A DNA stretch of 64,000 nt from a bacterium (lineage in GTDB: Bacteria > Patescibacteriota > Patescibacteriia > UBA9570), in assembly GCA_030698395.1 (NCBI GenBank), contig JAUYKW010000018.1, forward strand, positions 44,726 through 108,725, written 5' to 3'. This document shows, in pieces, positions 401 through 15,296 of the stretch. A program made the position numbers and the translations under genes. The notes under the pieces were generated by a model, which saw nothing but the letters and a program-made list of their open reading frames with translations, was not told the DNA's origin and made no database searches. Each line of letters begins with the position of its first letter. Within the stretch, counting starts at the first letter, position 1.

Positions 401-1681
401 ATGACTAGCAAGGTAAAAAAACAATTAGCAACATTACCACAAAAGCCAGGAATTTATTTGTTTAAAAATTCTATTGGTAATGTACTTTATGTAGGTAAAG
501 CGAAGTCTTTAAGTAGCCGAGTTCGATCATACTTTAGACAGCATAATGATTTGAATGAAGCTAAACAAATTATGGTACGGCAAATTGTTGATGTAGATTG
601 GATAGAAACAAAAACTGAATCTGATGCCATAATTTTAGAAGATAAGTTGATCAAAGATTATCAACCTAGATTTAATGTATTAGCAAAGGATGATAAAAGT
701 TTTTTGTATATTCATATAACGGATGAGAAGTTTCCTCAGGTACTAGCAGTACGGAGACCAAATCTTCGTAAAGCTGGAATATTTTATGGACCATATCCAT
801 TTGCTCGTAGTATTAGAGAAGTTCTAAAATTATTACATAACATTTTTCCATATCGGACTTGTAAAAATTTACCAAAAAAGGCTTGTTTAGAATATTACAT
901 TTATAAATGTAAAGCACCGTGCATTAATAAGATTTCAGAATCAGATTATCAAGCATTGATATATGATGTGTTAGCTTTTTTTGAAGGTAGAAATACTTTA
1001 GAGCTAGAATCAAGATTGGAAGAAATGATGCAGGTAGCTTCTGAAGATAAAAAGTTCGAAGATGCAGCAAAGTATCGTGATCAGTTAAAAGCAATAAAAA
1101 AGCTGCGTTCATTTCAAAAAACTCCACGTGAGTATTTAACTGATTATTACCAATTTAAGGCTATCGATCCTGATTTAGGCCTTCAACAGCTACAGGATGC
1201 TCTGGTTTTGCCAGCTCAGCCAAAGAGGGTAGAAGTTTATGATATTTCAAATATCCAAGGAACATATGCGGTTGGATCGATGGTGGTGTTTATTGATGGA
1301 TTGCCAGCTAGGAGTGAATATCGGAGATTTAAAATTAAAACTGTCCAAGGTGCAGATGATTATAAAAGTTTGCAAGAAGTGGTTAGACGGCGATTAAAAA
1401 GAGATTGGCCAAAACCAGATTTAGCTATCATGGATGGAGGTAAGGGGCAATTAAATGCTGTAAAACATTTTTGGCAAGATCATGACGTATCAGTTGTTGC
1501 TTTAGCCAAGAAAAGAGAAGAGCTATTTCTACCTGATCAAGCGATACCAATTACAATGGAAGCTGGTAGTCAGGGATTATTTCTAATTCAAAGAATGCGT
1601 GATGAAGCGCATCGTTTTGCCATCACTTATTATCGTAAATTGCACTCTAAATCAATGCGAGCTAATACCACTAAAAGCTAG
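401..1681 (+). CDS. uvrC: Excinuclease ABC subunit C (UvrC), short form (426 aa) apparently lacking the C-terminal (HhH)2 domain
   Basis: GIY-YIG N-terminus (GIYLFKN..VLYVGKAKSLSSRVRSYF). UVR motif (FEDAAKYRDQLKAIKKL). RNase H-like endonuclease region (VYDISNIQG..MDGGKGQLN..DEAHRFA). SD AGAGGAG at 391-397. Confidence 0.85.
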   Translation: MTSKVKKQLATLPQKPGIYLFKNSIGNVLYVGKAKSLSSRVRSYFRQHNDLNEAKQIMVRQIVDVDWIETKTESDAIILEDKLIKDYQPRFNVLAKDDKSFLYIHITDEKFPQVLAVRRPNLRKAGIFYGPYPFARSIREVLKLLHNIFPYRTCKNLPKKACLEYYIYKCKAPCINKISESDYQALIYDVLAFFEGRNTLELESRLEEMMQVASEDKKFEDAAKYRDQLKAIKKLRSFQKTPREYLTDYYQFKAIDPDLGLQQLQDALVLPAQPKRVEVYDISNIQGTYAVGSMVVFIDGLPARSEYRRFKIKTVQGADDYKSLQEVVRRRLKRDWPKPDLAIMDGGKGQLNAVKHFWQDHDVSVVALAKKREELFLPDQAIPITMEAGSQGLFLIQRMRDEAHRFAITYYRKLHSKSMRANTTKS

Positions 1682-3044
1682 GGGGAGTAGCTGGTGGAGT
1701 ACCACTTGGTGTTGATGGAATTATTTCCGGAGAATTTGTTGGAGTAGGAGGAATTGGACCTGATGGGGGAATTCCCTGAGTAGGTGCTTGTGGTTGTTGT
1801 GGCAGTGTAGGTTCTAATATTTCAGGGGTAGTAGGAGGATTATCTTGAGTTGGTGGTATAGGTTGTTGAATTGTAGCTGTTTCATCAGCTAGAGTATTTG
1901 CAATCGATGGTTCAGCTTCGAAGGCTGGTGCCATTTCTAAGGAAGCTAAGTCGGTTGCATTAATACCGGTTTGGATTAGTTCAGCATCTGAAATATGAAT
2001 TGCATCTATACCAATTCCAATAACTATGCCATTTTTATCTTGAGAACGATATATTTTTGCATCCGAAGCTAACGAGGCGTTTAATTCTGGTTGTTCTAGA
2101 GTTTTTAATTTGTCTGTAATTGATGAGGGCTCAGTGGTGAGTGTAGATTTAACAGCTGGAGATTCAGTTTTTTGCGGTAGCATGTGCAAGTCTTCTGTTG
2201 TGATGTCAGCATCAGTTACTTCTGTCGGAGAAAAATGTACAGATCCAGTAGCATGTTCAATTAGTAATCCCATTTCGGGTGTGGCATATACTTGAGCACC
2301 GGAAACGACAGTGTTTGCAACTGCCGGATTAGTATCGGAGAATTTTTTATTAAGAATTTCTATAATTTGCTCTGGCGTTAATGACTCTCGCTCTTTCTCG
2401 AGTGGAGTAACAGGCGATTCGGGTGCTTCTTCAATTGGTGAAATAGCTGGTGTGTTCGAAGTTGCTGGAGGAATGGAACCAGATTTATCAATGGTAGGAG
2501 TTGGTTGTTCATCTGTTGAGTTGACTTCAACAGGATGAGGTTTAATAAATTCTAAATCTTTAAAGATGTCTTCACTTTTTTCTGGATCGGTTTTAATTTG
2601 TGTTCGAGCTTCTTGAATTTTCTTTATTTGGTTATTTAGTTTACCCTCATTACTTTCCATGAAGCCGGTTTGTTCAATGAGCTTCTTTAGTTTATCAATT
2701 AAGCCGGTTTGTTCAGAATTAATACTTTCTAATTCAGAGATTAGTTTTTCTTCTGCACTATCCAATTTAGCCAAATAATCGACAGTCGTATCGGATGGTA
2801 CATCTTGAAGGGGTATTACTTGTGGTTTTAGAGATTCTCCAGGATTTTCTACTGGTGTCGATGTTGTCATGGGTTCAGGAGATGTTGTATCAGATTCTGA
2901 AGTAGGTGTTACTGGATTAGTTGTAGCTGAAGCAGTATTCACAAAAGGAAGTGTGATAGCTGGTCCAGACGTTGGAGTAGTTGAATTATCGTTGGGTGTA
3001 CCCATTGGTTGAGGAGGTACTGGATTTGAGGTTGATTCATTCAT
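1671..3044 (-). CDS. Hypothetical Pro/Thr/Ser-rich disordered protein with a central coiled-coil segment
   Basis: ORF-track frame 1671..3083. The 3083 start is TTG, so I prefer ATG at 3044 (MNESTSNPVPP). Low-complexity P/T/S termini flank the heptad-like segment LDSAEEKLISELESINSEQTGLIDKLKKLIEQ. No TM segment or catalytic motif seen. Confidence 0.6.
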   Translation of the reverse strand: MNESTSNPVPPQPMGTPNDNSTTPTSGPAITLPFVNTASATTNPVTPTSESDTTSPEPMTTSTPVENPGESLKPQVIPLQDVPSDTTVDYLAKLDSAEEKLISELESINSEQTGLIDKLKKLIEQTGFMESNEGKLNNQIKKIQEARTQIKTDPEKSEDIFKDLEFIKPHPVEVNSTDEQPTPTIDKSGSIPPATSNTPAISPIEEAPESPVTPLEKERESLTPEQIIEILNKKFSDTNPAVANTVVSGAQVYATPEMGLLIEHATGSVHFSPTEVTDADITTEDLHMLPQKTESPAVKSTLTTEPSSITDKLKTLEQPELNASLASDAKIYRSQDKNGIVIGIGIDAIHISDAELIQTGINATDLASLEMAPAFEAEPSIANTLADETATIQQPIPPTQDNPPTTPEILEPTLPQQPQAPTQGIPPSGPIPPTPTNSPEIIPSTPSGTPPATPPSF

Positions 3045-3104
3045 AATTAATATAATAATAGCATTTTTTTTAAGAAAAATCAAGTTGAAATATTTTAGAA
3101 ATAC

Positions 3105-3169: not shown

Positions 3170-5656
3170 TTAAACTGTAGCATTTGCATCAGGATGTTTA
3201 AGAGTTGGCAGTTCAGCTGATATTCTATCAACATTCTTTTCAGCTTCAGCATCTCTTGAGGCCTGAGCTATATCTCCGATTTTTCCAAAAGACATATATT
3301 CAGTAGGAAGTTCATCGTTTGCTACTGATTGCAGACCCTCTAAGGCTGTTTGGATATTTAACTGACCTGCATCTGCTAATGCCTCGGATAGTTGTGGTAA
3401 ATTGATATATTCAACCCCTGCATAATTACCTGGTTCGCCAGATAATATGTAAACACCCTGAGCATTTTGTGCAGTTGTGCCTTCTGGTAATCGAATATCA
3501 ATTAATCTTCCTTGTGCTGGCAAATCTACAAGCATGCGACGCAGATTGTCATTACTAGTTGCGAACTTTTTAGCTAAAGCATTTTTAATTTCGCTTACAT
3601 TATGTTCTCTCGTTTTTACTGCTTCAGTTTTTTCCGTTCCAGCTTCTGCATACGCTTTTTCTTCTGCTGCTTCAATCTGTTCAGACATGCGGGAATACTT
3701 ATTGTCTACACTTGGTGTTTGAACTGTTTCATTTCTGGCCGCTATGGAATCTTGAACGGATTTTGGTAAAGGTATACCAGATAAAGTAGCTTCTAGTTCC
3801 CAGGCATTTTCCATATTAGCATTTGCTTCATTACTAGCTTTTGTGGCTATTGATATTTTTTTATCAAGCGTAGCTAAAGCTTTGCGTAGTGCTCTGCCTT
3901 TTAGCGTTTCTGATTTTTCTAAGTTTGCTCTTTCAACAATTAAGTTACTTTCTATTTGTGAAGCTTTAATAAATGTGTTGGCAGCTTCCATAGATGCTTG
4001 AGATGCTTGTTCTATTGCTGCATTATCGGCATCTTCATTTGTTCTTGATAGTGTTTCAACGAGTTCTTGAGAGCCAGCAACATTGGCTTCAGCTTCTTTA
4101 ATACCAGCCTGAGTATCACGACTAATTTTTTCAAATAACTTGGCTCTTCCTTTTTCATCTGTTTTTCCTGCAAGGAAACGTTGATTTACTTCCCCAATCT
4201 TATCTGATCGTGCATCAAGTAAAGTTTTTAACTTCGCTTGTGCTTGTTCTAAACTTTGTTGAGCAGGCTCTAGAGCAGCGGATTTTTCTGCAGGCGTCAT
4301 TTGTTCCATTGGACGCATTGGTGTAATCATATCTTTAGCCAAAGCAGGGCTGTTTATTGTTACATCATATACGCTTTTGTCTGTTGTGAATCTAAAATCT
4401 TGTTTTTGTCTTGGCGAAAGTTTCGATGCACCTAGTGCTGTTTGTTCATATTCATCACGGAGTGCTCTCTGTTCATGTATATCCGATGGTGTTAGAGGAT
4501 TCATTGCCTCTCCATATTTAACTGGAGCTAGACCTTCTCCTTGTTTAAAAAATTCTTGTTCAACATCGTCACCAGCAAGTTCGCTAATGGCTTTTTCTGT
4601 TTGTTTATCTTCTACTTTTTGAATTTCAACTCCAAAATCACCTAAGTTAATAACTAGGCCACGAGCTCCATCAATTCTGCCATCATATTCTTCATTTATT
4701 TTTGCAATTGCCCGTTTAATCTCAGCGTCATTTAGTTTATCTGTATCAATTTCTGCAATTGCGATTGCCTTAGCATCCATAATTTGTTTGAGTTCTTCTT
4801 GAGCATTAGCAAGAGCTTTGGTTTTTTCTGCAGGTGTCATTTCTGGTTTATTAAAGTCCATGCGAGTTCTTGCTCCAGTACCGGATTCACCAACTTTTAT
4901 ACTATACGGGCTAGCTTGGCTTGATGTTGCAGTCTCTGTTCGTTGTAACTTAATACCACCACTAGCTGTGCGCATATAGAATTCATCTGCCATGTCATTG
5001 ACAATACTGGTCATGCCTGAATCTTGCATATGAGACATCTTCCACATGCTTTGGAATAACTTATTTTGATGTTCTGGGTCAGTAGAGGTTGCAATAGCTT
5101 CTCTTAATTTTCCTACAGCTTCTTGAATACGTTGTAGTTTAGTTTCTTGTCTGGTAAATAAACCAACACGTTCTGCTAGGCGTGTTACTTGAGCTCTTAG
5201 TACACTACGTTGCTCATCCATGGCTTCGTGTCGATTGCTAACAATCGTTTCTAATATTTTTAAGCTGTTAACCATGTGCTCTGCGCTAAGTAATCCTTCT
5301 GGTTTTTCAGCTGTAGCTTCTGCATCTTCATTAGGCAAATCTGAATAATCAACATCACTCATAGGTGTTTGGTAATTTCTAGCTTCAGGAATTCTATTAT
5401 AAGTTACCACTCCTTGGTCTTCTGGTTCTCCAATGTGTTGATCTAAATCTAACATTATGTCATCACTTGGGTCGTGGGAAATGTTTGGTAGTTGAGTTCT
5501 ATCTATTGGTGTTGTGGGGGCATTGTTATCTATATTGTCATCACCTGTATCTTCAAAACGTTCTGCGCCAGATAAAGGTAAGCCAGCATTATTTTCTATT
5601 TTTTTGGCTGGTAGATCTCTTTTATTTATTGGGTCTGTTCTTTCTCTTGCAACCAT
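3170..5656 (-). CDS. Hypothetical 828-aa Glu/Ala/Lys-rich coiled-coil protein with internal repeats
   Basis: Long uninterrupted ORF with an acidic disordered N-terminus and extended heptad-like stretches. A repeated MTPAEK-x-ALxxAQ module occurs at aa 272-290 and 452-470. No enzymatic motif, TM segment or signal peptide recognised. Confidence 0.65.
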   Translation of the reverse strand: MVARERTDPINKRDLPAKKIENNAGLPLSGAERFEDTGDDNIDNNAPTTPIDRTQLPNISHDPSDDIMLDLDQHIGEPEDQGVVTYNRIPEARNYQTPMSDVDYSDLPNEDAEATAEKPEGLLSAEHMVNSLKILETIVSNRHEAMDEQRSVLRAQVTRLAERVGLFTRQETKLQRIQEAVGKLREAIATSTDPEHQNKLFQSMWKMSHMQDSGMTSIVNDMADEFYMRTASGGIKLQRTETATSSQASPYSIKVGESGTGARTRMDFNKPEMTPAEKTKALANAQEELKQIMDAKAIAIAEIDTDKLNDAEIKRAIAKINEEYDGRIDGARGLVINLGDFGVEIQKVEDKQTEKAISELAGDDVEQEFFKQGEGLAPVKYGEAMNPLTPSDIHEQRALRDEYEQTALGASKLSPRQKQDFRFTTDKSVYDVTINSPALAKDMITPMRPMEQMTPAEKSAALEPAQQSLEQAQAKLKTLLDARSDKIGEVNQRFLAGKTDEKGRAKLFEKISRDTQAGIKEAEANVAGSQELVETLSRTNEDADNAAIEQASQASMEAANTFIKASQIESNLIVERANLEKSETLKGRALRKALATLDKKISIATKASNEANANMENAWELEATLSGIPLPKSVQDSIAARNETVQTPSVDNKYSRMSEQIEAAEEKAYAEAGTEKTEAVKTREHNVSEIKNALAKKFATSNDNLRRMLVDLPAQGRLIDIRLPEGTTAQNAQGVYILSGEPGNYAGVEYINLPQLSEALADAGQLNIQTALEGLQSVANDELPTEYMSFGKIGDIAQASRDAEAEKNVDRISAELPTLKHPDANATV

Positions 5657-5714
5657 ATATTTGATAGTTAAAGAATAGTGATTTTATTTGAATTTTTTAT
5701 TTTTGATTAATATA

Positions 5715-5742
5715 AGTATAGCAGAAATTTGAATTTTGTCAA
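5715..5742 (-). promoter_or_regulatory. Sigma70-like promoter for the 828-aa gene
   Basis: Minus strand: TTGACA (5742-5737), 16-nt spacer, TATACT (5720-5715). It lies about 55-60 nt upstream of ATG 5656. Confidence 0.5.
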
Positions 5743-5835
5743 GTAAAATAAGGCTTTTTGTATTATTTTTTATGGATTTTAAATGCTTATTACTTATATC
5801 AATTATTAGTAACATATTTGTATGATGATTAGACC

Positions 5836-5864
5836 TTGACAAATTGTAATATATCGGTGATAAT
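5836..5864 (+). promoter_or_regulatory. Near-consensus sigma70 promoter at the left edge of the GC-rich island
   Basis: TTGACA (5836-5841), exactly 17 nt spacer, GATAAT (5859-5864). The context TTAGAC-N-TTGACAA matches the secG promoter context at 11255-11268 in 13 of 14 positions. Confidence 0.65.
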
Positions 5865-6018
5865 GTTCTGTCCTCTTCGTTATGGAGGGGTCTGGTTCTT
5901 ACGGCACTCTATGTCGTTGGCGCCACGCTCTTTTTTACTAGACCGGTTTAGGATAATGCCCTATTCCAAATCGTCGTGCTTTTTCGACAAATCCTTAACT
6001 CACCACAAGGGAGATAAC
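5865..6018 (+). promoter_or_regulatory. Long GC-rich 5' leader / possible cis-regulatory or small RNA element upstream of the island ORF
   Basis: About 150 nt lie between the -10 box and ATG 6019. Pairings seen: CCTC 5872-5875 with GAGG 5885-5888, GGTCT 5889-5893 with AGACC 5940-5944, and GTCG 5973-5976 with CGAC 5985-5988. Palindrome TGGCGCCA 5918-5925 is followed by T6 at 5931-5936. Confidence 0.4.
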
Positions 6019-6987
6019 ATGACTGCGCAAGTCATTCCTTTCCCTAGCGGTGGAAGCCGGTCAGGGAAACAAGATATCTATGCTGAGATTCGGCCAAGCC
6101 AATCTCGGCTACAACAACATCGTCAAACCACAATGCAGGTAATTACGGGGACTGAGTGGACGGAACAATACCTCCACCCCCAGAACGTACGCGTGGAGCT
6201 GCCCCAACGTGGGGATGCAGAGCTCTTCGTGACAGTACACGTTCACATCCCGGCAATTCGTGGCCGGCTCCAGATTGGAGCGCAGGCGCTTGAACCGGGT
6301 AGACGACCCAGTGGTTGGGTGATGGCACAGGTAGAGGTGAGCGATCTTCGGCACCACCTCGTGTATGGACCAAGATACAAGAAGGTTCAGTATACGGTGC
6401 GACATGCCTTGGATGGCACTCACATGACCTTCCGGGTCAAGGTGGATCAATTCCCCTTCGGTCAGGCACAGGTGGTGCTTTGGTGGGTAGGCAAGAACGC
6501 CAACACCGATGGCATTTTCGTGCAGGCCAGGGAGATACCAGCTCTGACCTTGTCGACGAACGACCCTACAAGAACGATCACGCCTACGGGAGCGGTCGAT
6601 CGAACGGGAAAGGTCGTCGATAGCAACGTTGTAGTCGAGACCCACAGGTACGCATCCGGGTTTTTAACCGACTTCATCATCAACCTCCCGCACATGGATG
6701 GACAACAACATCCTGGTGTACCGCGGGTTCTCCCACGGCTGGACAAGGTGAACGTGCAAAAGGTGAACGTGCAAGACGGCACGTTGACGGTGATTGACCA
6801 ACTCACTGGCTCTGCCAAGGTGTACGACCATATCGTCTTTACGTGCGAGCGTTCAGACGAGGCTACACACCTCCGGTTCAGAGTCGAGGGGATGGACGCA
6901 ATTCCTGTCGGGTCCGAAGAGCTGGTCCTAGAATGGAGATCGACGTCTCTGGGTGGTTACTACATCCAGGTGATCGTTGATCGCTGA
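6019..6987 (+). CDS. Orphan 322-aa protein of the GC-rich island; beta-rich, with two tandem homologous halves; function unknown
   Basis: ATG 6019 is preceded by SD AAGGGAGA (6007-6014). The frame stays open across the whole island. Other-frame ORFs here are GC-rich shadow ORFs. A repeated motif is visible: THMTFRVKVDQFPFGQAQVVLWWVG versus THLRFRVEGMDAIPVGSEELVLEWRS. Confidence 0.7.
   Translation: MTAQVIPFPSGGSRSGKQDIYAEIRPSQSRLQQHRQTTMQVITGTEWTEQYLHPQNVRVELPQRGDAELFVTVHVHIPAIRGRLQIGAQALEPGRRPSGWVMAQVEVSDLRHHLVYGPRYKKVQYTVRHALDGTHMTFRVKVDQFPFGQAQVVLWWVGKNANTDGIFVQAREIPALTLSTNDPTRTITPTGAVDRTGKVVDSNVVVETHRYASGFLTDFIINLPHMDGQQHPGVPRVLPRLDKVNVQKVNVQDGTLTVIDQLTGSAKVYDHIVFTCERSDEATHLRFRVEGMDAIPVGSEELVLEWRSTSLGGYYIQVIVDR
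6745..6774 (+). repeat. Perfect 15-bp tandem duplication inside the island ORF
   Basis: AAGGTGAACGTGCAA at 6745-6759 is repeated exactly at 6760-6774. It is in frame and gives KVNVQKVNVQ. Confidence 0.95.
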
Positions 6988-6999
6988 AATGTCCAGCAT

Positions 7000-7077
7000 G
7001 GAAGTGAGAGGTACTGCGTACAACGCAGGACTTGAAACGTCGTCGCACATCAACTGCTGACTACCTCTCCATCTTCC
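7000..7077 (+). other. Nested hairpin element immediately 3' of the island ORF
   Basis: Outer stem: GGAAG 7000-7004 with CTTCC 7073-7077, and GAGAGGTA 7006-7013 with TACCTCTC 7062-7069. Inner hairpin: CTGCGT 7014-7019, loop ACA, ACGCAG 7023-7028. No T-tract follows. Confidence 0.6.
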
Positions 7078-7166
7078 CCTTAATCTTATAAATTATGTTT
7101 TAGACTTTTTTGTTTGTAAGTAACACAAAAGTTGAAAGCAGAATTTGTTTCTTTTAGAATCGCTAA

Positions 7167-8093
7167 CTAAGTTATTTTTAAGAGCATTACGAATTGCTCG
7201 AATGCAGAAAAATATTTCTTCGGACGTAATGTTGTATTTTGGTATTCCAACATTACTTCTATCATATAATCATCATGTGTAAACAGAACTACTCGTGATG
7301 GAGAGCTGGTTGTTGTTTCTAACATTAATCCATTTCGTTGGGAGATTTCTGGAATTGATTCAAGAATGTTAGCATTAATATATTCTGGTCTGTATTTTTT
7401 AATCCAATCAAGTGTTGTAACAGTGTCATTTTCTGCTAGTGATATTGTAAGGCTAGCACTTTCTCGATCCTTTGTTTGTAATTTTATTTTGTCTGGACCG
7501 ACTGTATTTACTTCAAAATAGTCTTCATACTCAATCGATAACTCTCCAGCATTAGTATTGAATTGTCTTTCTTGCATTGCTACCGGGTGAGTTATTTTTC
7601 CGTAGGATATATTTTCATCATATGCAGACACCATATTAATATGAGAGCTATATACAACAACTAATACCATAAAACCAATTACAACTAACGCGCAAGCGCT
7701 AAAGAAATGTTCGCCAAAACTTAACTTATTAATTTTAGATTTTTCTTCAATAGTTATTACAGGTGTTTCATTGTCACTCTCAATAGATTCAATGGGTGCA
7801 ACAGAATCGATACTTTCTATCGGTGAAATTGGTTCTAATTCTAATTTTTCAACTATGGACTGTTTTTCTGGAACTGGTTTTGATTTCTTTTGTACTTTTT
7901 TCTTAGCAACAGGTTTCTTAACAACAGTCTTTTTTGTAGTAATTTTTTTAGGTGCTTTTTTAACGGCAATGCTTTTCTTCTTTTTATTAGCTGTAACCTT
8001 TGTTACTTTAGTCGGGGCTTTGGCTTTATTCTCTTTTGCCTTGCTGACTTTAGTATTTTTTGGTTTGCTTATTTTTTTTGTTATTTTTGCCAT
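7167..8093 (-). CDS. Hypothetical bitopic membrane protein with a polycationic Lys-rich N-terminal tail
   Basis: By my count, 31 of the first 77 residues are Lys (AKKxP/KKxV repeats, histone-H1-like). This is followed by a PIESI(D/E)S repeat, one TM helix (FFSACALVVIGFMVLVVVYSS) and a ~160-aa C-terminal domain. Confidence 0.6.
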   Translation of the reverse strand: MAKITKKISKPKNTKVSKAKENKAKAPTKVTKVTANKKKKSIAVKKAPKKITTKKTVVKKPVAKKKVQKKSKPVPEKQSIVEKLELEPISPIESIDSVAPIESIESDNETPVITIEEKSKINKLSFGEHFFSACALVVIGFMVLVVVYSSHINMVSAYDENISYGKITHPVAMQERQFNTNAGELSIEYEDYFEVNTVGPDKIKLQTKDRESASLTISLAENDTVTTLDWIKKYRPEYINANILESIPEISQRNGLMLETTTSSPSRVVLFTHDDYMIEVMLEYQNTTLRPKKYFSAFEQFVMLLKIT

Positions 8094-13409: not shown

Positions 13410-15218
13410 ATGATAAAAAAATCAGACAAAACATACAGATCAAATGAAGCAGATACAAGGAAGCGAAAAGCGCGAACACTGCAAAGAACGGTAAGTAAAA
13501 GATCCGGTGGTAGAAAAACATTAAGTATTAATGGTTACCAAGGACCAACAAATAAACGTTCAAAATTACGTGTTGCCATTGTAGGTGGCGCAGAAGAAGT
13601 AGGAAGAAACATGACCATGGTTGAATACGGTAATGATATCGTATTGATTGATTGTGGTTTACAGTTTCCAGAAGAAGATCAACCGGGTATTGATTACATC
13701 ATCCCAAATGTTTCTTATCTAAAGGGACGAGAAAAAGATGTAAAGGGTATTATAATTACTCACGGTCATTATGATCACATTGGTGGTATTCCACATATTT
13801 CACCAGTTCTTCACCATCCTCCAATTTATGGTACGAAATTAACTAATGGAATAATTAACAAGCGTCAGGATGATTTTCCTGATAAGGGTAAATTAGATTT
13901 ACGGGAAATTGATCCTGAGAAATCTATTCAACTTGGTATTTTTAACATCGAATTTTTTCGAGTGAATCATAACATCCCTGATTGCGTTGGTATTATTGTA
14001 CATACACCCGAAGGTACATTAGTTCATACTGGAGATTTTAAATTTGACCTTCAACCAATCATGGATGAAGTTACTGATTTTGCAAAGATTGCAAATATTG
14101 GTAAGCAAGGTGTATTAGCTTTGTTGTCCGATTCTACAAATGCTCCTTCACCAGGACATCAGTTATCTGAAAGTAAAATTGGCTTAACACTTGATGAAAT
14201 ATTTAGTAAGTCTACTGGACGAATTATAGTTGGAACATTTGCTTCGTTGTTAAATCGTTTACAGCAAGTAATCTGGATTTCTGAAAAATACGGTCGTAAA
14301 GTAGTTGTAGAAGGATATAGCATGAAGAGTAATATTGAAATATCTCATAAGTTGGGATATTTGAAAGTTAATCCAAAAACATTAATTTCACCAAAAGAAG
14401 CTTTGAAGTTACCAGATGATAAGGTAACTATCATGTGTACTGGTGCTCAAGGAGAGAGTAATGCTGCTTTGATGCGGATTGCAAATCGTGAGCATAGATT
14501 TTTCAAGATTGCTCAAGGAGATACAATAATCTTTTCTTCTTCAGTTATTCCTGGAAACGAAAGAACAGTACAGCGATTGAAAGATACTCTTTTAAAGGAA
14601 GGTGCACATGTAATTCATTATGAAATGATGGATGTTCATGCTGGTGGTCATGCTAAAGCTGAAGATTTGAAATTACTATTCAGATTGTTAAATCCAAAAT
14701 ACATTATCCCTGTGGAAGGAAATAGATTCTTATTAGAAGCTTCAAAAGGTATAGCGAAAGAGTTGGGTTGGACAGATGAGACCGCCTTAGTAACAACTAA
14801 CGGACAAATCATTCAATTTTCTGGTGGCGAAGGTAAGTTACTGAAAGAAAAAATTCCAACTGATTATGTAATGGTTGATGGATTAGGTGTTGGAGATGTA
14901 CAAGAAATTGTATTACGTGATCGACAGTTAATGAGTGAGGACGGAATGTTTGTGATTATCGTTACTATTAAGAAACAAACTGGAGAATTAATCGGTAGTC
15001 CAGATATTATTTCTCGTGGTTTCGTGTACATGAAAGATGCAAAGCATTTAATTGAGGATGCTCGTAGTCAAGTAAAGAAAATATGTGCTAAGAATAATCC
15101 AGAGAATGCATCAAATCCTATGTGGTTGAAGAATAAGTTGCGAGATGATATGGGTCAGTTCTTATTTCAAAGAATTCAAAGACGACCAATGATTCTGCCA
15201 GTTGTGGTAGAAGTTTAA
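13410..15218 (+). CDS. rnj: Ribonuclease J (metallo-beta-lactamase/beta-CASP) with a basic N-terminal extension
   Basis: HGHYDHIGG motif, beta-CASP region and conserved C-terminal domain. About 50 aa of Lys/Arg-rich sequence lie ahead of LRVAIVGG. Confidence 0.85.
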   Translation: MIKKSDKTYRSNEADTRKRKARTLQRTVSKRSGGRKTLSINGYQGPTNKRSKLRVAIVGGAEEVGRNMTMVEYGNDIVLIDCGLQFPEEDQPGIDYIIPNVSYLKGREKDVKGIIITHGHYDHIGGIPHISPVLHHPPIYGTKLTNGIINKRQDDFPDKGKLDLREIDPEKSIQLGIFNIEFFRVNHNIPDCVGIIVHTPEGTLVHTGDFKFDLQPIMDEVTDFAKIANIGKQGVLALLSDSTNAPSPGHQLSESKIGLTLDEIFSKSTGRIIVGTFASLLNRLQQVIWISEKYGRKVVVEGYSMKSNIEISHKLGYLKVNPKTLISPKEALKLPDDKVTIMCTGAQGESNAALMRIANREHRFFKIAQGDTIIFSSSVIPGNERTVQRLKDTLLKEGAHVIHYEMMDVHAGGHAKAEDLKLLFRLLNPKYIIPVEGNRFLLEASKGIAKELGWTDETALVTTNGQIIQFSGGEGKLLKEKIPTDYVMVDGLGVGDVQEIVLRDRQLMSEDGMFVIIVTIKKQTGELIGSPDIISRGFVYMKDAKHLIEDARSQVKKICAKNNPENASNPMWLKNKLRDDMGQFLFQRIQRRPMILPVVVEV

Positions 15219-15260
15219 GATCCTTTCCTGTCTGTAAAAATGTAGGGTCAGTATTTGAAA

Positions 15261-15296
15261 AGTAGAAACGTAGCATGCTACGTTTCTACTTTTTTA
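15261..15296. terminator. Strong (potentially bidirectional) intrinsic terminator after rnj
   Basis: Perfect 30-nt palindrome AGTAGAAACGTAGCATGCTACGTTTCTACT (15261-15290), followed by TTTTTT and preceded by GAAAA. Confidence 0.85.

What the first reader, a model, noticed from the sequence alone, without database searches (positions are those of the whole stretch)
7000..7077. Nested hairpin element at the island's 3' edge, with an inverted-repeat relationship to the 5' edge
A 13-bp interrupted outer stem begins 13 nt after the stop codon. It pairs GGAAG/CTTCC and GAGAGGTA/TACCTCTC and encloses a perfect 6-bp hairpin (CTGCGT-ACA-ACGCAG) plus 33 unpaired nt.

No T-tract follows, so it is not a classical intrinsic terminator. 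Transcription from the strong island promoter could therefore run antisense into the Lys-rich gene at 7167-8093.

The right arm, ACCTCTCCAT (7063-7072), is the reverse complement of ATGGAGAGGT. That matches ATGGAGGGGT (5882-5891) near the left edge in 9 of 10 positions.

So both island ends carry purine/pyrimidine-tract hairpins of similar sequence. This recalls the subterminal hairpins of some mobile elements or a 3' RNA-stabilising or processing structure. The ORF has no transposase features I recognise.
Basis: seen in the sequence. Interest (0 to 1): 0.55.

Follow-up and report, generated by a model that had tools for sequence, protein, structure and literature searches.

The report
Conserved four-way-junction mRNA 3' end
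The hairpin is real, but it is not the end of a mobile element: it is the conserved, cloverleaf-shaped 3' end of an unusually GC-rich, very heavily folded messenger RNA that sits at the same genomic spot in a small group of ultra-small (Patescibacteria) bacteria.

Summary
The structure is real. Positions 7000-7077 pair as described, but the "33 unpaired nt" form two more hairpins. The result is a stacked four-way junction (-31 kcal/mol, z about -4 to -5).

The 9/10 inverted match to the 5' edge is at chance level and is not conserved.

The "island" is not a recent insertion. The same GC-rich, opposite-strand gene lies between the UvrD/Lys-rich-protein genes and UvrC/UvrA in five related Patescibacteria lineages (UvrD 67-69% identical). 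Shared features:
- a TTGACA promoter and a 5'-terminal hairpin;
- an invariant leader 10-mer, GCCCTATTCC;
- in four of the five lineages, a fast-evolving beta-sandwich ORF followed by a purine-arm/pyrimidine-arm 3' structure, which is a four-way junction in three of those four.

Between close relatives the junction differs at 2.4% of positions and the ORF at 11.8%. Whole transcripts are extremely structured (z -4.5 to -10; neighbouring genes about 0).

Best reading: the junction defines and protects the 3' end of a hyper-structured, stable mRNA by blocking exonucleases, and may also terminate transcription. This mechanism is inferred; there are no transcript data. The element is not in Rfam, is single-copy, and belongs to a tiny clade.

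The parts
5836..5864 (+). Sigma-70-type promoter TTGACA-17-GATAAT (alternatively TG-n-TAATGT at 5861-5866). Its -35 and -10 boxes align with those of the related loci.
   Evidence: 11/12 consensus match. It is one of only four such matches found in the ~43 kb scanned. It aligns with TTGACA / TAnnnT in L049, L050, L054, L057 and L058.
5872..5890 (+). 5'-terminal hairpin CCUCUUC-GUUAU-GGAGGGG, starting 1-3 nt after the predicted transcription start.
   Evidence: -9.4 kcal/mol, z -2.2. An equivalent GTCC(C/T)C...GGGG hairpin sits at the same distance from the -10 box in all related loci.
5958..5967 (+). Invariant leader motif GCCCTATTCC, usually displayed in a hairpin loop. Its partner is unknown.
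   Evidence: Identical in all six loci. It lies in a loop in the global folds of L049, L050 and L058.
5970..5988 (+). Second conserved leader block: ATCGTCGTGC (fully shared with L058; L057 keeps only TCGTGC) overlapping GTGCTTTTTCGAC (shared with L049).
   Evidence: Read.
6007..6013 (+). Shine-Dalgarno sequence AAGGGAG, 5 nt before the ATG.
   Evidence: SD plus ATG are aligned in the relatives.
6019..6987 (+). 322-aa ORF made of two tandem copies of a lineage-specific beta-sandwich domain. It is GC-rich (GC3 0.62 against 0.19-0.31 in all 53 other ORFs of the window).
7000..7077 (+). The finding: a four-way junction. Outer stem 7000-7004/7073-7077 plus 7006-7013/7062-7069. Inner hairpins H1 7014-7028, H2 7029-7041, H3 7042-7061.
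   Evidence: The same topology is seen in L049, L050 and L054. Null frequency of this topology is 0.4-1.3%. It is conserved at 2.4% differences against 11.8% for the ORF between L050 and L054.
7078..7091 (+). Pyrimidine-rich tail CCTTAATCTTATAA after the junction. It has no uninterrupted T-run.
   Evidence: Compare the tails TATGATTTTTCTTCTT (L050; L054 has TACTGATTTTTCTTCTT) and TTACCCCTTTACTTGTTTT (L049).

Best explanation
Positions 7000-7077 form the 3'-terminal structural module of a conserved, single-copy, strongly promoted and extraordinarily structured mRNA.

How the unit is built:
- Transcription starts at about 5870 from a near-consensus promoter.
- The RNA begins with a hairpin within 1-3 nt of its 5' end.
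- Its leader displays an invariant GCCCUAUUCC motif.
- It encodes a fast-evolving beta-sandwich protein.
- Twelve nt after the stop codon, an SD-like purine tract pairs with a CCUCC-like pyrimidine tract. This closes a perfectly stacked four-way junction.

Shown here: the structure, its conservation in architecture across lineages, its purifying selection, and its membership of a hyper-structured transcript.

Inferred: the junction marks and protects the transcript's 3' end. It would block 3'-to-5' exonucleases and, with the pyrimidine/U-rich tail, probably pause or terminate RNA polymerase. That would prevent the transcript from running antisense into the convergent Lys-rich membrane-protein gene. 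The 5' hairpin would do the equivalent job against the RNase J encoded at 13410-15218. Together they would give a long-lived mRNA.
For: Structure:
- (z -3.9 to -5.05).
- Retained in the full-length fold with p about 0.8.

Not an assembly artefact: an independent Logan assembly of run SRR13727534 is 100% identical over 5700-7200, including both junctions.

Synteny: UvrD -> Lys-rich 300-aa protein -> [opposite-strand GC-rich unit] -> ... -> UvrC -> UvrA is found in L049, L050/L055, L054, L057 and L058. The GC island is at the same place in each.

Conserved architecture:
- W, L049, L050 and L054 each fold on their own into outer stem plus three hairpins with at most one linker nucleotide (z -5.05, -4.77, -3.25, -3.84).
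- The junction persists in their global MFE structures.
- This topology occurs in only 1.3% of ORF-body windows and 0.4% of shuffles.
- L057 keeps the purine/pyrimidine stem as a plain hairpin.

Selection:
- Between L050 and L054 the junction has 2 differences in 83 nt, both in the H1 loop. One change creates a UACG tetraloop. The ORF has 54 differences in 456 nt (Fisher p 0.006).
- L049 H1 is capped by a UUCG tetraloop. UNCG loops are RNA-specific stabilisers (established knowledge).

Whole transcript:
- z -10.3/-7.3 (L049), -8.8/-9.4 (L050), -6.9 (L057), -4.9 (L058), -4.5 (W).
- Controls: -1.95 to +2.24 for host neighbour genes, and -0.26 to -3.06 for GC-matched coding pieces.
- The sense strand is always more structured than the antisense strand.
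- Substitutions avoid paired positions (7.8% against 18.3%) and break fewer pairs than expected (p 0.007).

Context:
- The 5'-terminal hairpin and promoter are conserved in all six loci.
- RNase J is present in the window.
- Host convergent gene pairs otherwise abut or overlap with no intergenic structure.
- Canonical terminators are not enriched in this genome.
Against: - There are no transcript data, so the 3' end is not mapped and stabilisation or termination is pure inference.
- W has no U-tract. In the relatives the U-rich stretch starts 3-10 nt after the stem, which is atypical for intrinsic termination.
- Only three independent lineages carry the four-way form. L057 has a simple hairpin and L058 has no clear equivalent, so the branched architecture may not be essential.
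- The junction contains almost no G-U pairs and folds equally well on the minus strand. The strand on which it acts is inferred from context, not shown.
- A simple hairpin would suffice for exonuclease blocking, so why there are four helices is unexplained.
Confidence: 0.55

Rival explanations
1. It is one functional module of a dual-function or primarily structural RNA. It would be a docking platform for a protein (possibly the encoded beta-sandwich protein) or for another RNA, not mainly an end-protection device. The selected product of the locus would be the folded RNA itself.
For: - Whole-transcript z is -4.5 to -10, against about 0 for neighbouring genes.
- Substitutions preserve pairing inside the ORF.
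- GC enrichment has been maintained in genomes of 33-43% GC across deep divergence.
- L058 keeps the promoter, the 5' hairpin, the invariant motif and a structured ~560-nt GC-elevated RNA (z -4.9), but has no family ORF; its longest sense ORFs are 33-48 aa.
- The invariant GCCCUAUUCC motif is displayed in a loop.
- A four-way junction is more elaborate than end protection needs.
Against: - The ORF is clearly coding where present: codon periodicity, in-frame indel, and family motifs.
- No complementary target for the loop motif is enriched in the window.
- There is no Rfam match.
- The junction is absent or simplified in L057 and L058.
Confidence: 0.2
2. It is simply an unusual factor-independent transcription terminator, possibly bidirectional, for the convergent gene pair.
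For: - It sits between two convergent stop codons (6987 and 7167) and folds on both strands.
- In L050 and L054 a U5 run follows a few nt after the stem. In L049 the element ends about 25 nt from the convergent gene's stop codon.
- Its outer stem is long and GC-rich.
Against: - W has no T-run and the scan does not call it.
- It is branched, not a simple hairpin.
- L057 carries, about 50 nt further downstream, a separate canonical terminator (CCCGGG-ACACAT-GCCCGGGC plus a T-run). This suggests the purine/pyrimidine stem is not itself the terminator there.
- The host can make canonical terminators when it uses them (15257-15294).
Confidence: 0.15
3. It is a DNA-level element: a subterminal hairpin of an IS200/IS605-like or cassette-type mobile element, or a recombination site marking the edge of a horizontally acquired island.
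For: - There is a sharp GC jump at both edges, and GC3 is 0.62 against about 0.23 in the host.
- Hairpins lie near both ends.
- The single-stranded DNA fold has z -4.08.
- The ORF is an orphan.
- A different GC-rich gene sits beside UvrD in L052 and L053.
Against: - The unit is syntenic, with homologous promoter, leader and ORF family, in five lineages.
- It is single-copy. The hairpin-arm pattern has no copies in metagenome or viral contigs, and the six viral-contig matches to other leader patterns are chance matches.
- There is no transposase or integrase domain.
- No attC core sites and no target-site duplication were seen.
- The end-to-end inverted repeat is at chance level.
- UNCG tetraloops and the sense-strand bias point to RNA.
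Confidence: 0.03
4. It is a chance by-product of GC-rich sequence with no function.
For: GC-rich sequence folds well. One other window in the ORF (6040-6119) reaches the same energy.
Against: - 0 of 200 shuffles fold as well.
- The same rare topology recurs at the same position in three independent lineages.
- It is 5-fold better conserved than the ORF.
Confidence: 0.03

Closest known systems
3' stabilising stem-loops of bacterial mRNAs (for example the Bacillus thuringiensis cry 'positive retroregulator', or REP-type stabilisers in E. coli operons); recalled from established literature, not tested here
   Same: A stable GC-rich structure lies just downstream of a stop codon at the end of a transcription unit. 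It has no obligatory U-tract and is proposed to block 3'-to-5' exonucleases. Here it is paired with a 5'-terminal hairpin, the classic 5' stabiliser anatomy (ompA in E. coli; RNase J-protected leaders in B. subtilis).
   Different: It is a four-way junction rather than a single hairpin. It is single-copy, whereas REPs are dispersed repeats. It is embedded in a transcript that is hyper-structured along its whole length. No half-life data exist.
Rho-independent (intrinsic) terminators
   Same: It has a long GC-rich outer stem after the stop codon and lies between convergent genes. The tail is U/pyrimidine-rich in some relatives.
   Different: The interior is branched. W has no U-run within 0-2 nt of the stem. 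L057 has a separate canonical terminator downstream.
tRNA-like / cloverleaf 3' structures (viral TLS, the tRNA-like domain of tmRNA, mascRNA)
   Same: It is a four-helix cloverleaf of about 78 nt at the 3' end of an RNA. H2 has a 7-nt loop, UUGAAAC, with the U33/purine-37 pattern.
   Different: - There are no inter-helix linkers.
- There are no D-loop or T-loop consensus sequences.
- The outer stem is 13 bp.
- It is not called by ARAGORN or by any Rfam tRNA, tmRNA or TLS model at E<=10.
- Helix lengths vary freely among relatives.
IS200/IS605 subterminal hairpins and integron attC sites
   Same: Imperfect palindromes flank or follow an orphan ORF, and the fold is also stable as single-stranded DNA.
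   Different: There is no TnpA, TnpB or integrase, and no RYYYAAC/GTTRRRY cores. The unit is single-copy, stays in a fixed syntenic slot over deep divergence, and carries its own conserved promoter.
Highly structured dual-function RNAs such as Staphylococcus aureus RNAIII
   Same: It is strongly promoted, long and very structured. It encodes a small protein and displays a conserved pyrimidine-rich sequence in a hairpin loop.
   Different: No targets have been identified, and there is no sequence or Rfam relationship. The ORF occupies most of the RNA. The resemblance concerns how it may work, not family membership.

Membership tests
Rho-independent terminator | GC-rich stem at the 3' end of a transcription unit | tested here: met
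   The 13-bp outer stem begins 12 nt after the stop codon.
Rho-independent terminator | Single unbranched hairpin with a short (3-8 nt) loop | tested here: not met
   The MFE and centroid structures are a four-way junction with a 48-nt interior.
Rho-independent terminator | U-tract (at least 5 U in 8 nt) starting 0-2 nt after the stem | tested here: not met
   It is not called by the scan. The tail is CCUUAAUCUUAU. In L050 and L054 the U5 run starts 4-5 nt after the stem.
IS200/IS605-type element ends | Associated TnpA (Y1) and/or TnpB gene | tested here: not met
   The ORF has no Pfam, NCBIfam, PHROG, PADLOC or PDB match. The two flanking genes (308 aa and 828 aa) also have no Pfam or NCBIfam match.
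IS200/IS605-type element ends | Multiple copies or variable insertion sites | tested here: not met
   There is one copy in the 64-kb window. The hairpin-arm pattern has no match in metagenome or viral contigs. The unit occupies the same syntenic slot in five lineages.
IS200/IS605-type element ends | Related subterminal hairpins at the left and right ends | tested here: inconclusive
   Both ends have C-run/G-run hairpins in all lineages. Their sequence relationship is at chance level and not conserved.
Integron attC site | R''/R' core sites (RYYYAAC ... GTTRRRY) bounding the palindrome | tested here: not met
   Reading 6988-7095 shows no AAC/GTT cores at the stem boundaries.
tRNA / tRNA-like structure | Recognised by tRNA/tmRNA detectors or covariance models | tested here: not met
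   ARAGORN finds 0 genes in the window. There is no Rfam hit in 5868-7100 at E<=10.
tRNA / tRNA-like structure | Four-helix cloverleaf topology of about 76 nt | tested here: met
   It is 78 nt, with an outer stem plus three hairpins.
3' mRNA-stabilising stem-loop | Stable structure at the transcript's 3' end, conserved by selection | tested here: met
   z is -3.9 to -5. Differences are 2.4% against 11.8% in the ORF between L050 and L054. The architecture recurs in three lineages.
3' mRNA-stabilising stem-loop | Increases mRNA half-life or blocks 3' exonucleases | not testable with these tools
   This needs RNA decay assays or Term-seq.
Any described RNA family (Rfam 15) | Covariance-model match | tested here: not met
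   Searches give no hit inside the element in W or L057. L049 and L050 were searched only at gathering threshold and gave none. L058 gives only weak hits far below gathering score.

The most novel reading that the evidence does not exclude
The whole 0.56-1.2-kb transcript, not just its 3' hairpin, may be a previously undescribed class of large, GC-rich, hyper-structured RNA. It is fixed at one syntenic locus in a Kerfeldbacteria-like Patescibacteria clade.

In this reading the fold itself is the selected product. The supporting observations are:
- z of -5 to -10;
- substitutions that preserve base pairs, even inside the ORF;
- GC content held about 5-20 points above the genome (about 5 in L058, 13-20 elsewhere) across deep divergence;
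- retention of the structured RNA in L058, which has lost the long ORF.

The four-way junction, the 5' hairpin and the loop-displayed invariant GCCCUAUUCC would be its functional modules. The beta-sandwich ORF would be a second, dispensable function or a partner protein.
Probability: 0.3. Interest if true: 0.75.

Novelty: new variant of a known kind. Interest (0 to 1): 0.5.

Why it matters
**What changes.** A compositional "island" that looks like fresh horizontal transfer turns out to be an old, vertically inherited locus. Its GC-richness tracks RNA structure rather than foreign origin. This is a caution for island callers working on AT-rich genomes.

**Possible value.** If the inferred role holds, it would be a natural example of a branched four-way-junction 3' end paired with a 5'-terminal hairpin on a bacterial mRNA. 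It occurs in a phylum where RNA decay and termination signals are essentially uncharacterised and canonical terminators are not enriched.

**Broader reading.** If the whole transcript is a structured RNA, it adds a new large structured RNA, with an invariant loop motif, to Patescibacteria, organisms that cannot yet be manipulated genetically. It would also supply concrete, testable modules.

**Limits.** The family is tiny and there are no expression data.

Tried and rejected
**Searches that found nothing**
- Homologues of the 322-aa ORF. The 5.8-billion-protein word search and the full HMMER scan of 1.84 billion representatives returned only the protein itself.
- Pfam, PHROGs, PADLOC, NCBIfam and PDB sequence searches.
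- tblastn against phages and blastn against plasmids.
- Protein-based scans of metagenome and viral contigs.
- Copies of the hairpin arms in the window, metagenome and viral contigs.
- Leader-motif patterns in viral contigs gave 6 hits. All lie in GC-rich phage DNA or inside a phage ORF and are in the range expected by chance, so they were rejected.

**Steps that were uninformative**
- Single-sequence AF2 gave pLDDT 36.
- The genome-contig scan with UvrD returned only distant phyla, at most 48% identity over a best local segment. Synteny came instead from exact-protein look-ups of closer UvrD homologues.
- BLASTP between the ORFs of different lineages found nothing. Homology only became visible in multiple alignment.
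- The fold search gave only generic Ig-like sandwiches.
- The afdb50 library was unavailable.

**Ideas rejected**
- Assembly chimera: an independent assembly is identical.
- tRNA, tmRNA or TLS.
- attC site: no core sites.
- 5'-3' circularising pairing.
- The 75-aa ORF downstream in L050: it has frame-breaking indels in L054 and is not called there.
- Trans targets of the loop motif in the window: 16 matches against 30 expected.

**Not attempted**
- A formal covariation count on the junction. With three independent, unalignable sequences, any structure-guided alignment would be circular. A topology null and a close-pair conservation test were used instead.
- Two literature searches found no description of this locus.
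Full report
**1. The observation**

- The ORF stops at 6985-6987.
- GGAAG (7000-7004) pairs with CTTCC (7073-7077).
- GAGAGGTA (7006-7013) pairs with TACCTCTC (7062-7069).
- CTGCGT-ACA-ACGCAG occupies 7014-7028.

Folding 6995-7085 gives these values.

| Fold | Energy (kcal/mol) | z | Shuffles as good |
|---|---|---|---|
| RNA, + strand | -31.3 | -3.87 | 0 of 200 |
| Exact 80-mer | -31.3 | -5.05 | 0 of 200 |
| DNA parameters | -17.1 | -4.08 | 0 of 200 |
| RNA, - strand | -32.7 | -2.8 | 1 of 200 |

They form two further hairpins, at 7029-7041 and 7042-7061. The element is therefore a four-way junction with no linker nucleotides.

It is the most extreme of 90 sliding 80-nt windows across 5600-7460 (z -4.46). 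It persists with pair probability of about 0.8 when the whole 1215-nt predicted transcript is folded. No T-run follows it, and the terminator scan does not call it.

**2. The inverted repeat to the 5' edge**

ATGGAGGGGT (5882-5891) is indeed 9/10 complementary to 7063-7072. The match is not meaningful, for four reasons.
- The 10-mer with at most 1 mismatch occurs 7 times in the window against 3.1 expected.
- Shuffling the left edge gives p = 0.027 (35 nt), 0.10 (75 nt) or 0.19 (whole leader). 3% of arbitrary host 35-nt windows match the hairpin equally well.
- In the full-length fold the 5'-3' pairing has about 2% probability.
- In the related loci, end-to-end duplex potential is not above background.

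What is conserved is simpler. Each end carries its own hairpin built from a C-run and a G-run.

**3. What the "island" is**

The segment 5870-7077 is 55% GC in a 33% GC genome. It contains one ORF, 6019-6987, preceded by the SD sequence AAGGGAG.
- The ORF has normal codon periodicity (GC1/2/3 = 0.64/0.41/0.62).
- Its open frame is longer than in any of 2000 shuffles.
- Its GC3 is a complete outlier against 0.19-0.31 for the other 53 ORFs.
- The protein has no homologue outside its own record in 5.8 billion proteins or 1.84 billion representatives, and no known domain.

Taken alone, this looks like fresh horizontal transfer. It is not.

An independent Logan assembly of run SRR13727534 reproduces both junctions at 100% identity. 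This excludes a binning or assembly chimera.

The nearest UvrD homologues are 67-69% identical and come from Patescibacteria, some named Kerfeldbacteria. Exact-protein look-ups of these homologues recovered their contigs.

The gene order UvrD -> Lys-rich ~300-aa membrane protein -> [opposite-strand unit] -> variable large protein(s) -> UvrC -> UvrA is conserved. A GC island (51-61%, against 40-43% for the locus) sits in the same slot in L049, L050/L055, L054, L057 and L058.

**4. Anatomy of the conserved unit**

Alignment of the six 5' regions shows the following features in every locus:
- a TTGACA -35 box;
- a TAnnnT -10 box;
- GTCC at the predicted start, opening a 5'-terminal hairpin;
- an invariant 10-mer, GCCCTATTCC (window 5958-5967).

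The 10-mer usually lies in a hairpin loop. An SD sequence and ATG follow.

The ORFs are 322, 171, 152, 151 and 192 aa long. BLASTP does not align them. Multiple alignment shows shared motifs: DLVIxLPY, LRV, xLRFRV..D, VFLxW. The window protein is a tandem duplication of the domain.

A profile search finds only 10 members in 5.8 billion proteins. AF2 with this shallow alignment gives a seven-strand beta-sandwich with a disordered N-terminus (pLDDT 59). It has only generic Ig-like neighbours.

Between the close pair L050 and L054, the ORF is 84% identical in amino acids. It has 16 synonymous and 24 non-synonymous codon changes and one in-frame indel. It is therefore coding, but fast-evolving.

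L058 has lost the long ORF; its longest sense-strand ORFs are 33-48 aa. It keeps the promoter, the 5' hairpin and the motif.

**5. The 3' element in relatives**

Folded independently, the sequence after the stop codon in L049, L050 and L054 gives the same architecture as in the window.
- A purine-rich, SD-like 5' arm pairs with a CCUCC-like 3' arm.
- This outer stem encloses exactly three hairpins with at most one linker nucleotide.
- z values are -4.77, -3.25 and -3.84.
- The junction also appears in their global MFE structures.

The primary sequences are almost entirely different. This topology (outer stem of at least 8 bp, three branches, spanning at least 90% of the window) occurs in 1.3% of windows from the ORF bodies and 0.4% of shuffles. 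Its recurrence at the same position in three independent lineages is therefore very unlikely by chance.

L057 keeps only the purine/pyrimidine stem, as a plain hairpin (z -3.1). It also has a separate canonical terminator about 50 nt further on.

The tail TCGTCCTCCAT is shared by L050, L054 and L057.

Between L050 and L054 the junction has 2 differences in 83 nt. Both lie in the H1 loop, and one creates a UACG tetraloop. The ORF has 54 differences in 456 nt (Fisher p = 0.006). The flanking intergenic DNA differs at 42-69% of positions.

H1 of L049 is capped by a UUCG tetraloop. UNCG loops are RNA-specific stabilisers (established knowledge), which points to an RNA-level role.

**6. The unexpected part: the whole transcript is hyper-structured**

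| Sequence | z, sense | z, antisense |
|---|---|---|
| L049 | -10.3 (tool: -7.3) | -6.8 |
| L050 | -8.8 (tool: -9.4) | -5.0 |
| L057 | -6.9 | -5.4 |
| L058 | -4.9 | -3.3 |
| Window (W) | -4.5 | not run |
| Host neighbour genes (controls) | -1.95 to +2.24 | |
| GC-matched coding pieces (controls) | -0.26 to -3.06 | |

The sense strand is always more structured than the antisense strand. 65-70% of bases are paired.

Between L050 and L054, substitutions hit 7.8% of paired positions against 18.3% of unpaired positions. They break fewer pairs than random placement would: 16 observed against 20.7 +/- 1.6 expected (p = 0.007).

The GC-richness of the "island" is therefore best explained by long-term selection for RNA structure, not by foreign origin.

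**7. Mechanism**

Shown:
- a conserved, selected four-way-junction structure immediately 3' of the ORF;
- a conserved 5'-terminal hairpin;
- a near-consensus promoter, one of four 11/12 matches found in the ~43 kb scanned;
- RNase J encoded in the window at 13410-15218;
- host convergent genes that otherwise abut or overlap, with no intergenic structures;
- canonical terminators not enriched over shuffles.

Inferred, from established knowledge of 5' stem-loop protection against RNase E/J and 3' stem-loop protection against PNPase/RNase II-type enzymes:
- the two terminal structures bracket and stabilise the mRNA;
- the junction defines its 3' end by blocking exonucleases, and possibly by pausing or terminating polymerase;
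- this insulates the convergent Lys-rich gene from antisense transcription.

I give this reading 0.55.

The main rival (0.2) is that the junction is a docking or functional module of a dual-function structured RNA. A plain atypical terminator gets 0.15. A DNA-level mobile-element end and chance get about 0.03 each.

**8. Comparison with known systems**

The element works most like 3' stabilising stem-loops paired with a 5' stabiliser. Membership tests gave these results.
- Intrinsic terminator: fails. It is branched and has no adjacent U-tract.
- tRNA-like structures: fails.
- IS200/IS605 ends: fails. There is no TnpA or TnpB, it is single-copy, and it is syntenic.
- attC site: fails. There are no core sites.
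- Rfam: no match.
- Literature: two full-text searches found nothing on this locus.

**9. Verdict**

The inverted-repeat link to the 5' edge is not supported.

The 3' RNA structure reading holds; the mobile-element reading does not.

I classify the element as a new variant of a known kind: a branched, conserved 3'-end structure. It lies in a narrowly distributed but compositionally and structurally remarkable transcript.

Interest is 0.5. The more novel reading, that the whole transcript is a new large structured RNA, has probability of about 0.3.

Noticed in passing
window 5958-5967 (also L049 8207-8216(-), L050 13851-13860(-), L054, L057, L058): The 10-mer GCCCTATTCC is invariant in the 5' leader of all six related loci, although the surrounding leader differs by about 40% even between close relatives. 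It is usually presented in a hairpin loop and preceded by an A-rich run. No complementary target is enriched in the window.
   Followed up: partly
window 5870-7085; L049 7562-8327(-); L050 13262-13964(-); L057 10950-11697(-); L058 ~3307-3864(-): The whole transcripts are far more structured than shuffles (z -4.5 to -10), whereas neighbouring genes are near 0. Base-pair-preserving substitutions occur inside the ORF. The GC 'island' seems to reflect selection for RNA structure.
   Followed up: partly
window 5886-5937: When the leader is folded alone, a long imperfect hairpin (GGAGGGG...CGCUCUU) is followed by T6 (5932-5937). This looks like an attenuator. It competes with the 5'-terminal hairpin for the GGAGGGG arm. 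It is weakly supported (z -1.9) and is not predicted in the full-length fold.
   Followed up: no
window 6019-6987: The ORF is a tandem duplication of the family's ~140-aa beta-sandwich domain; relatives have one copy. It also contains a 15-nt tandem repeat at 6740-6769 (KVNVQKVNVQ).
   Followed up: partly
window 6040-6119: A second very stable local structure lies just inside the start of the ORF (-31.3 kcal/mol, z -4.3). It is formed by TTCCCT...AGGGAA and GCTGAGATT...AATCTCGGC.
   Followed up: no
L058 3252-4000: One lineage retains the promoter, 5' hairpin, invariant motif and a structured, GC-elevated ~560-nt RNA. It has no family-type ORF; the longest sense-strand ORFs are 33-48 aa.
   Followed up: partly
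L052 12092-13051 and L053 5711-6670: In another UvrD clade the slot next to UvrD holds a different GC-rich (up to 68%) plus-strand gene with a twin-arginine signal and lipobox. A ~400-nt GC-rich leader precedes it and contains GGAAGTGAGGGTGTA (compare the window's GGAAGTGAGAGGTA). The region has z -3.9. It lacks the GCCCTATTCC motif.
   Followed up: no
window: 1671/1681, 17575/17577, 33421/33440, 35496/35497, 44575/44578, 51570/51583: All other convergent gene pairs in the window overlap or abut by at most 13 nt, so there is no room for terminators. Terminator-like sites are not enriched over shuffles. One textbook 17-bp terminator exists at 15257-15294, after the RNase J gene.
   Followed up: partly
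window 1-64000: ARAGORN finds no tRNA or tmRNA gene in the 64-kb window.
   Followed up: no
L049 3897-4485; L054 7380-7968: A PhdYeFM/PemK toxin-antitoxin pair sits immediately upstream of UvrD in two relatives but not in the window. Several UvrD homologues in this clade carry inteins (Pfam PF14890, for example P0020, P0024, P0086).
   Followed up: no
window 3170-5656 and 1671-3083 (- strand): The genes downstream of the unit encode large proteins (828 aa with a charged, E/A/K-rich sequence; 470 aa Pro/Thr-rich) with no Pfam or NCBIfam match. They are replaced by differently sized proteins (386+385, 410, 404, 423, 416 aa) in the relatives, so this is a variable region.
   Followed up: no
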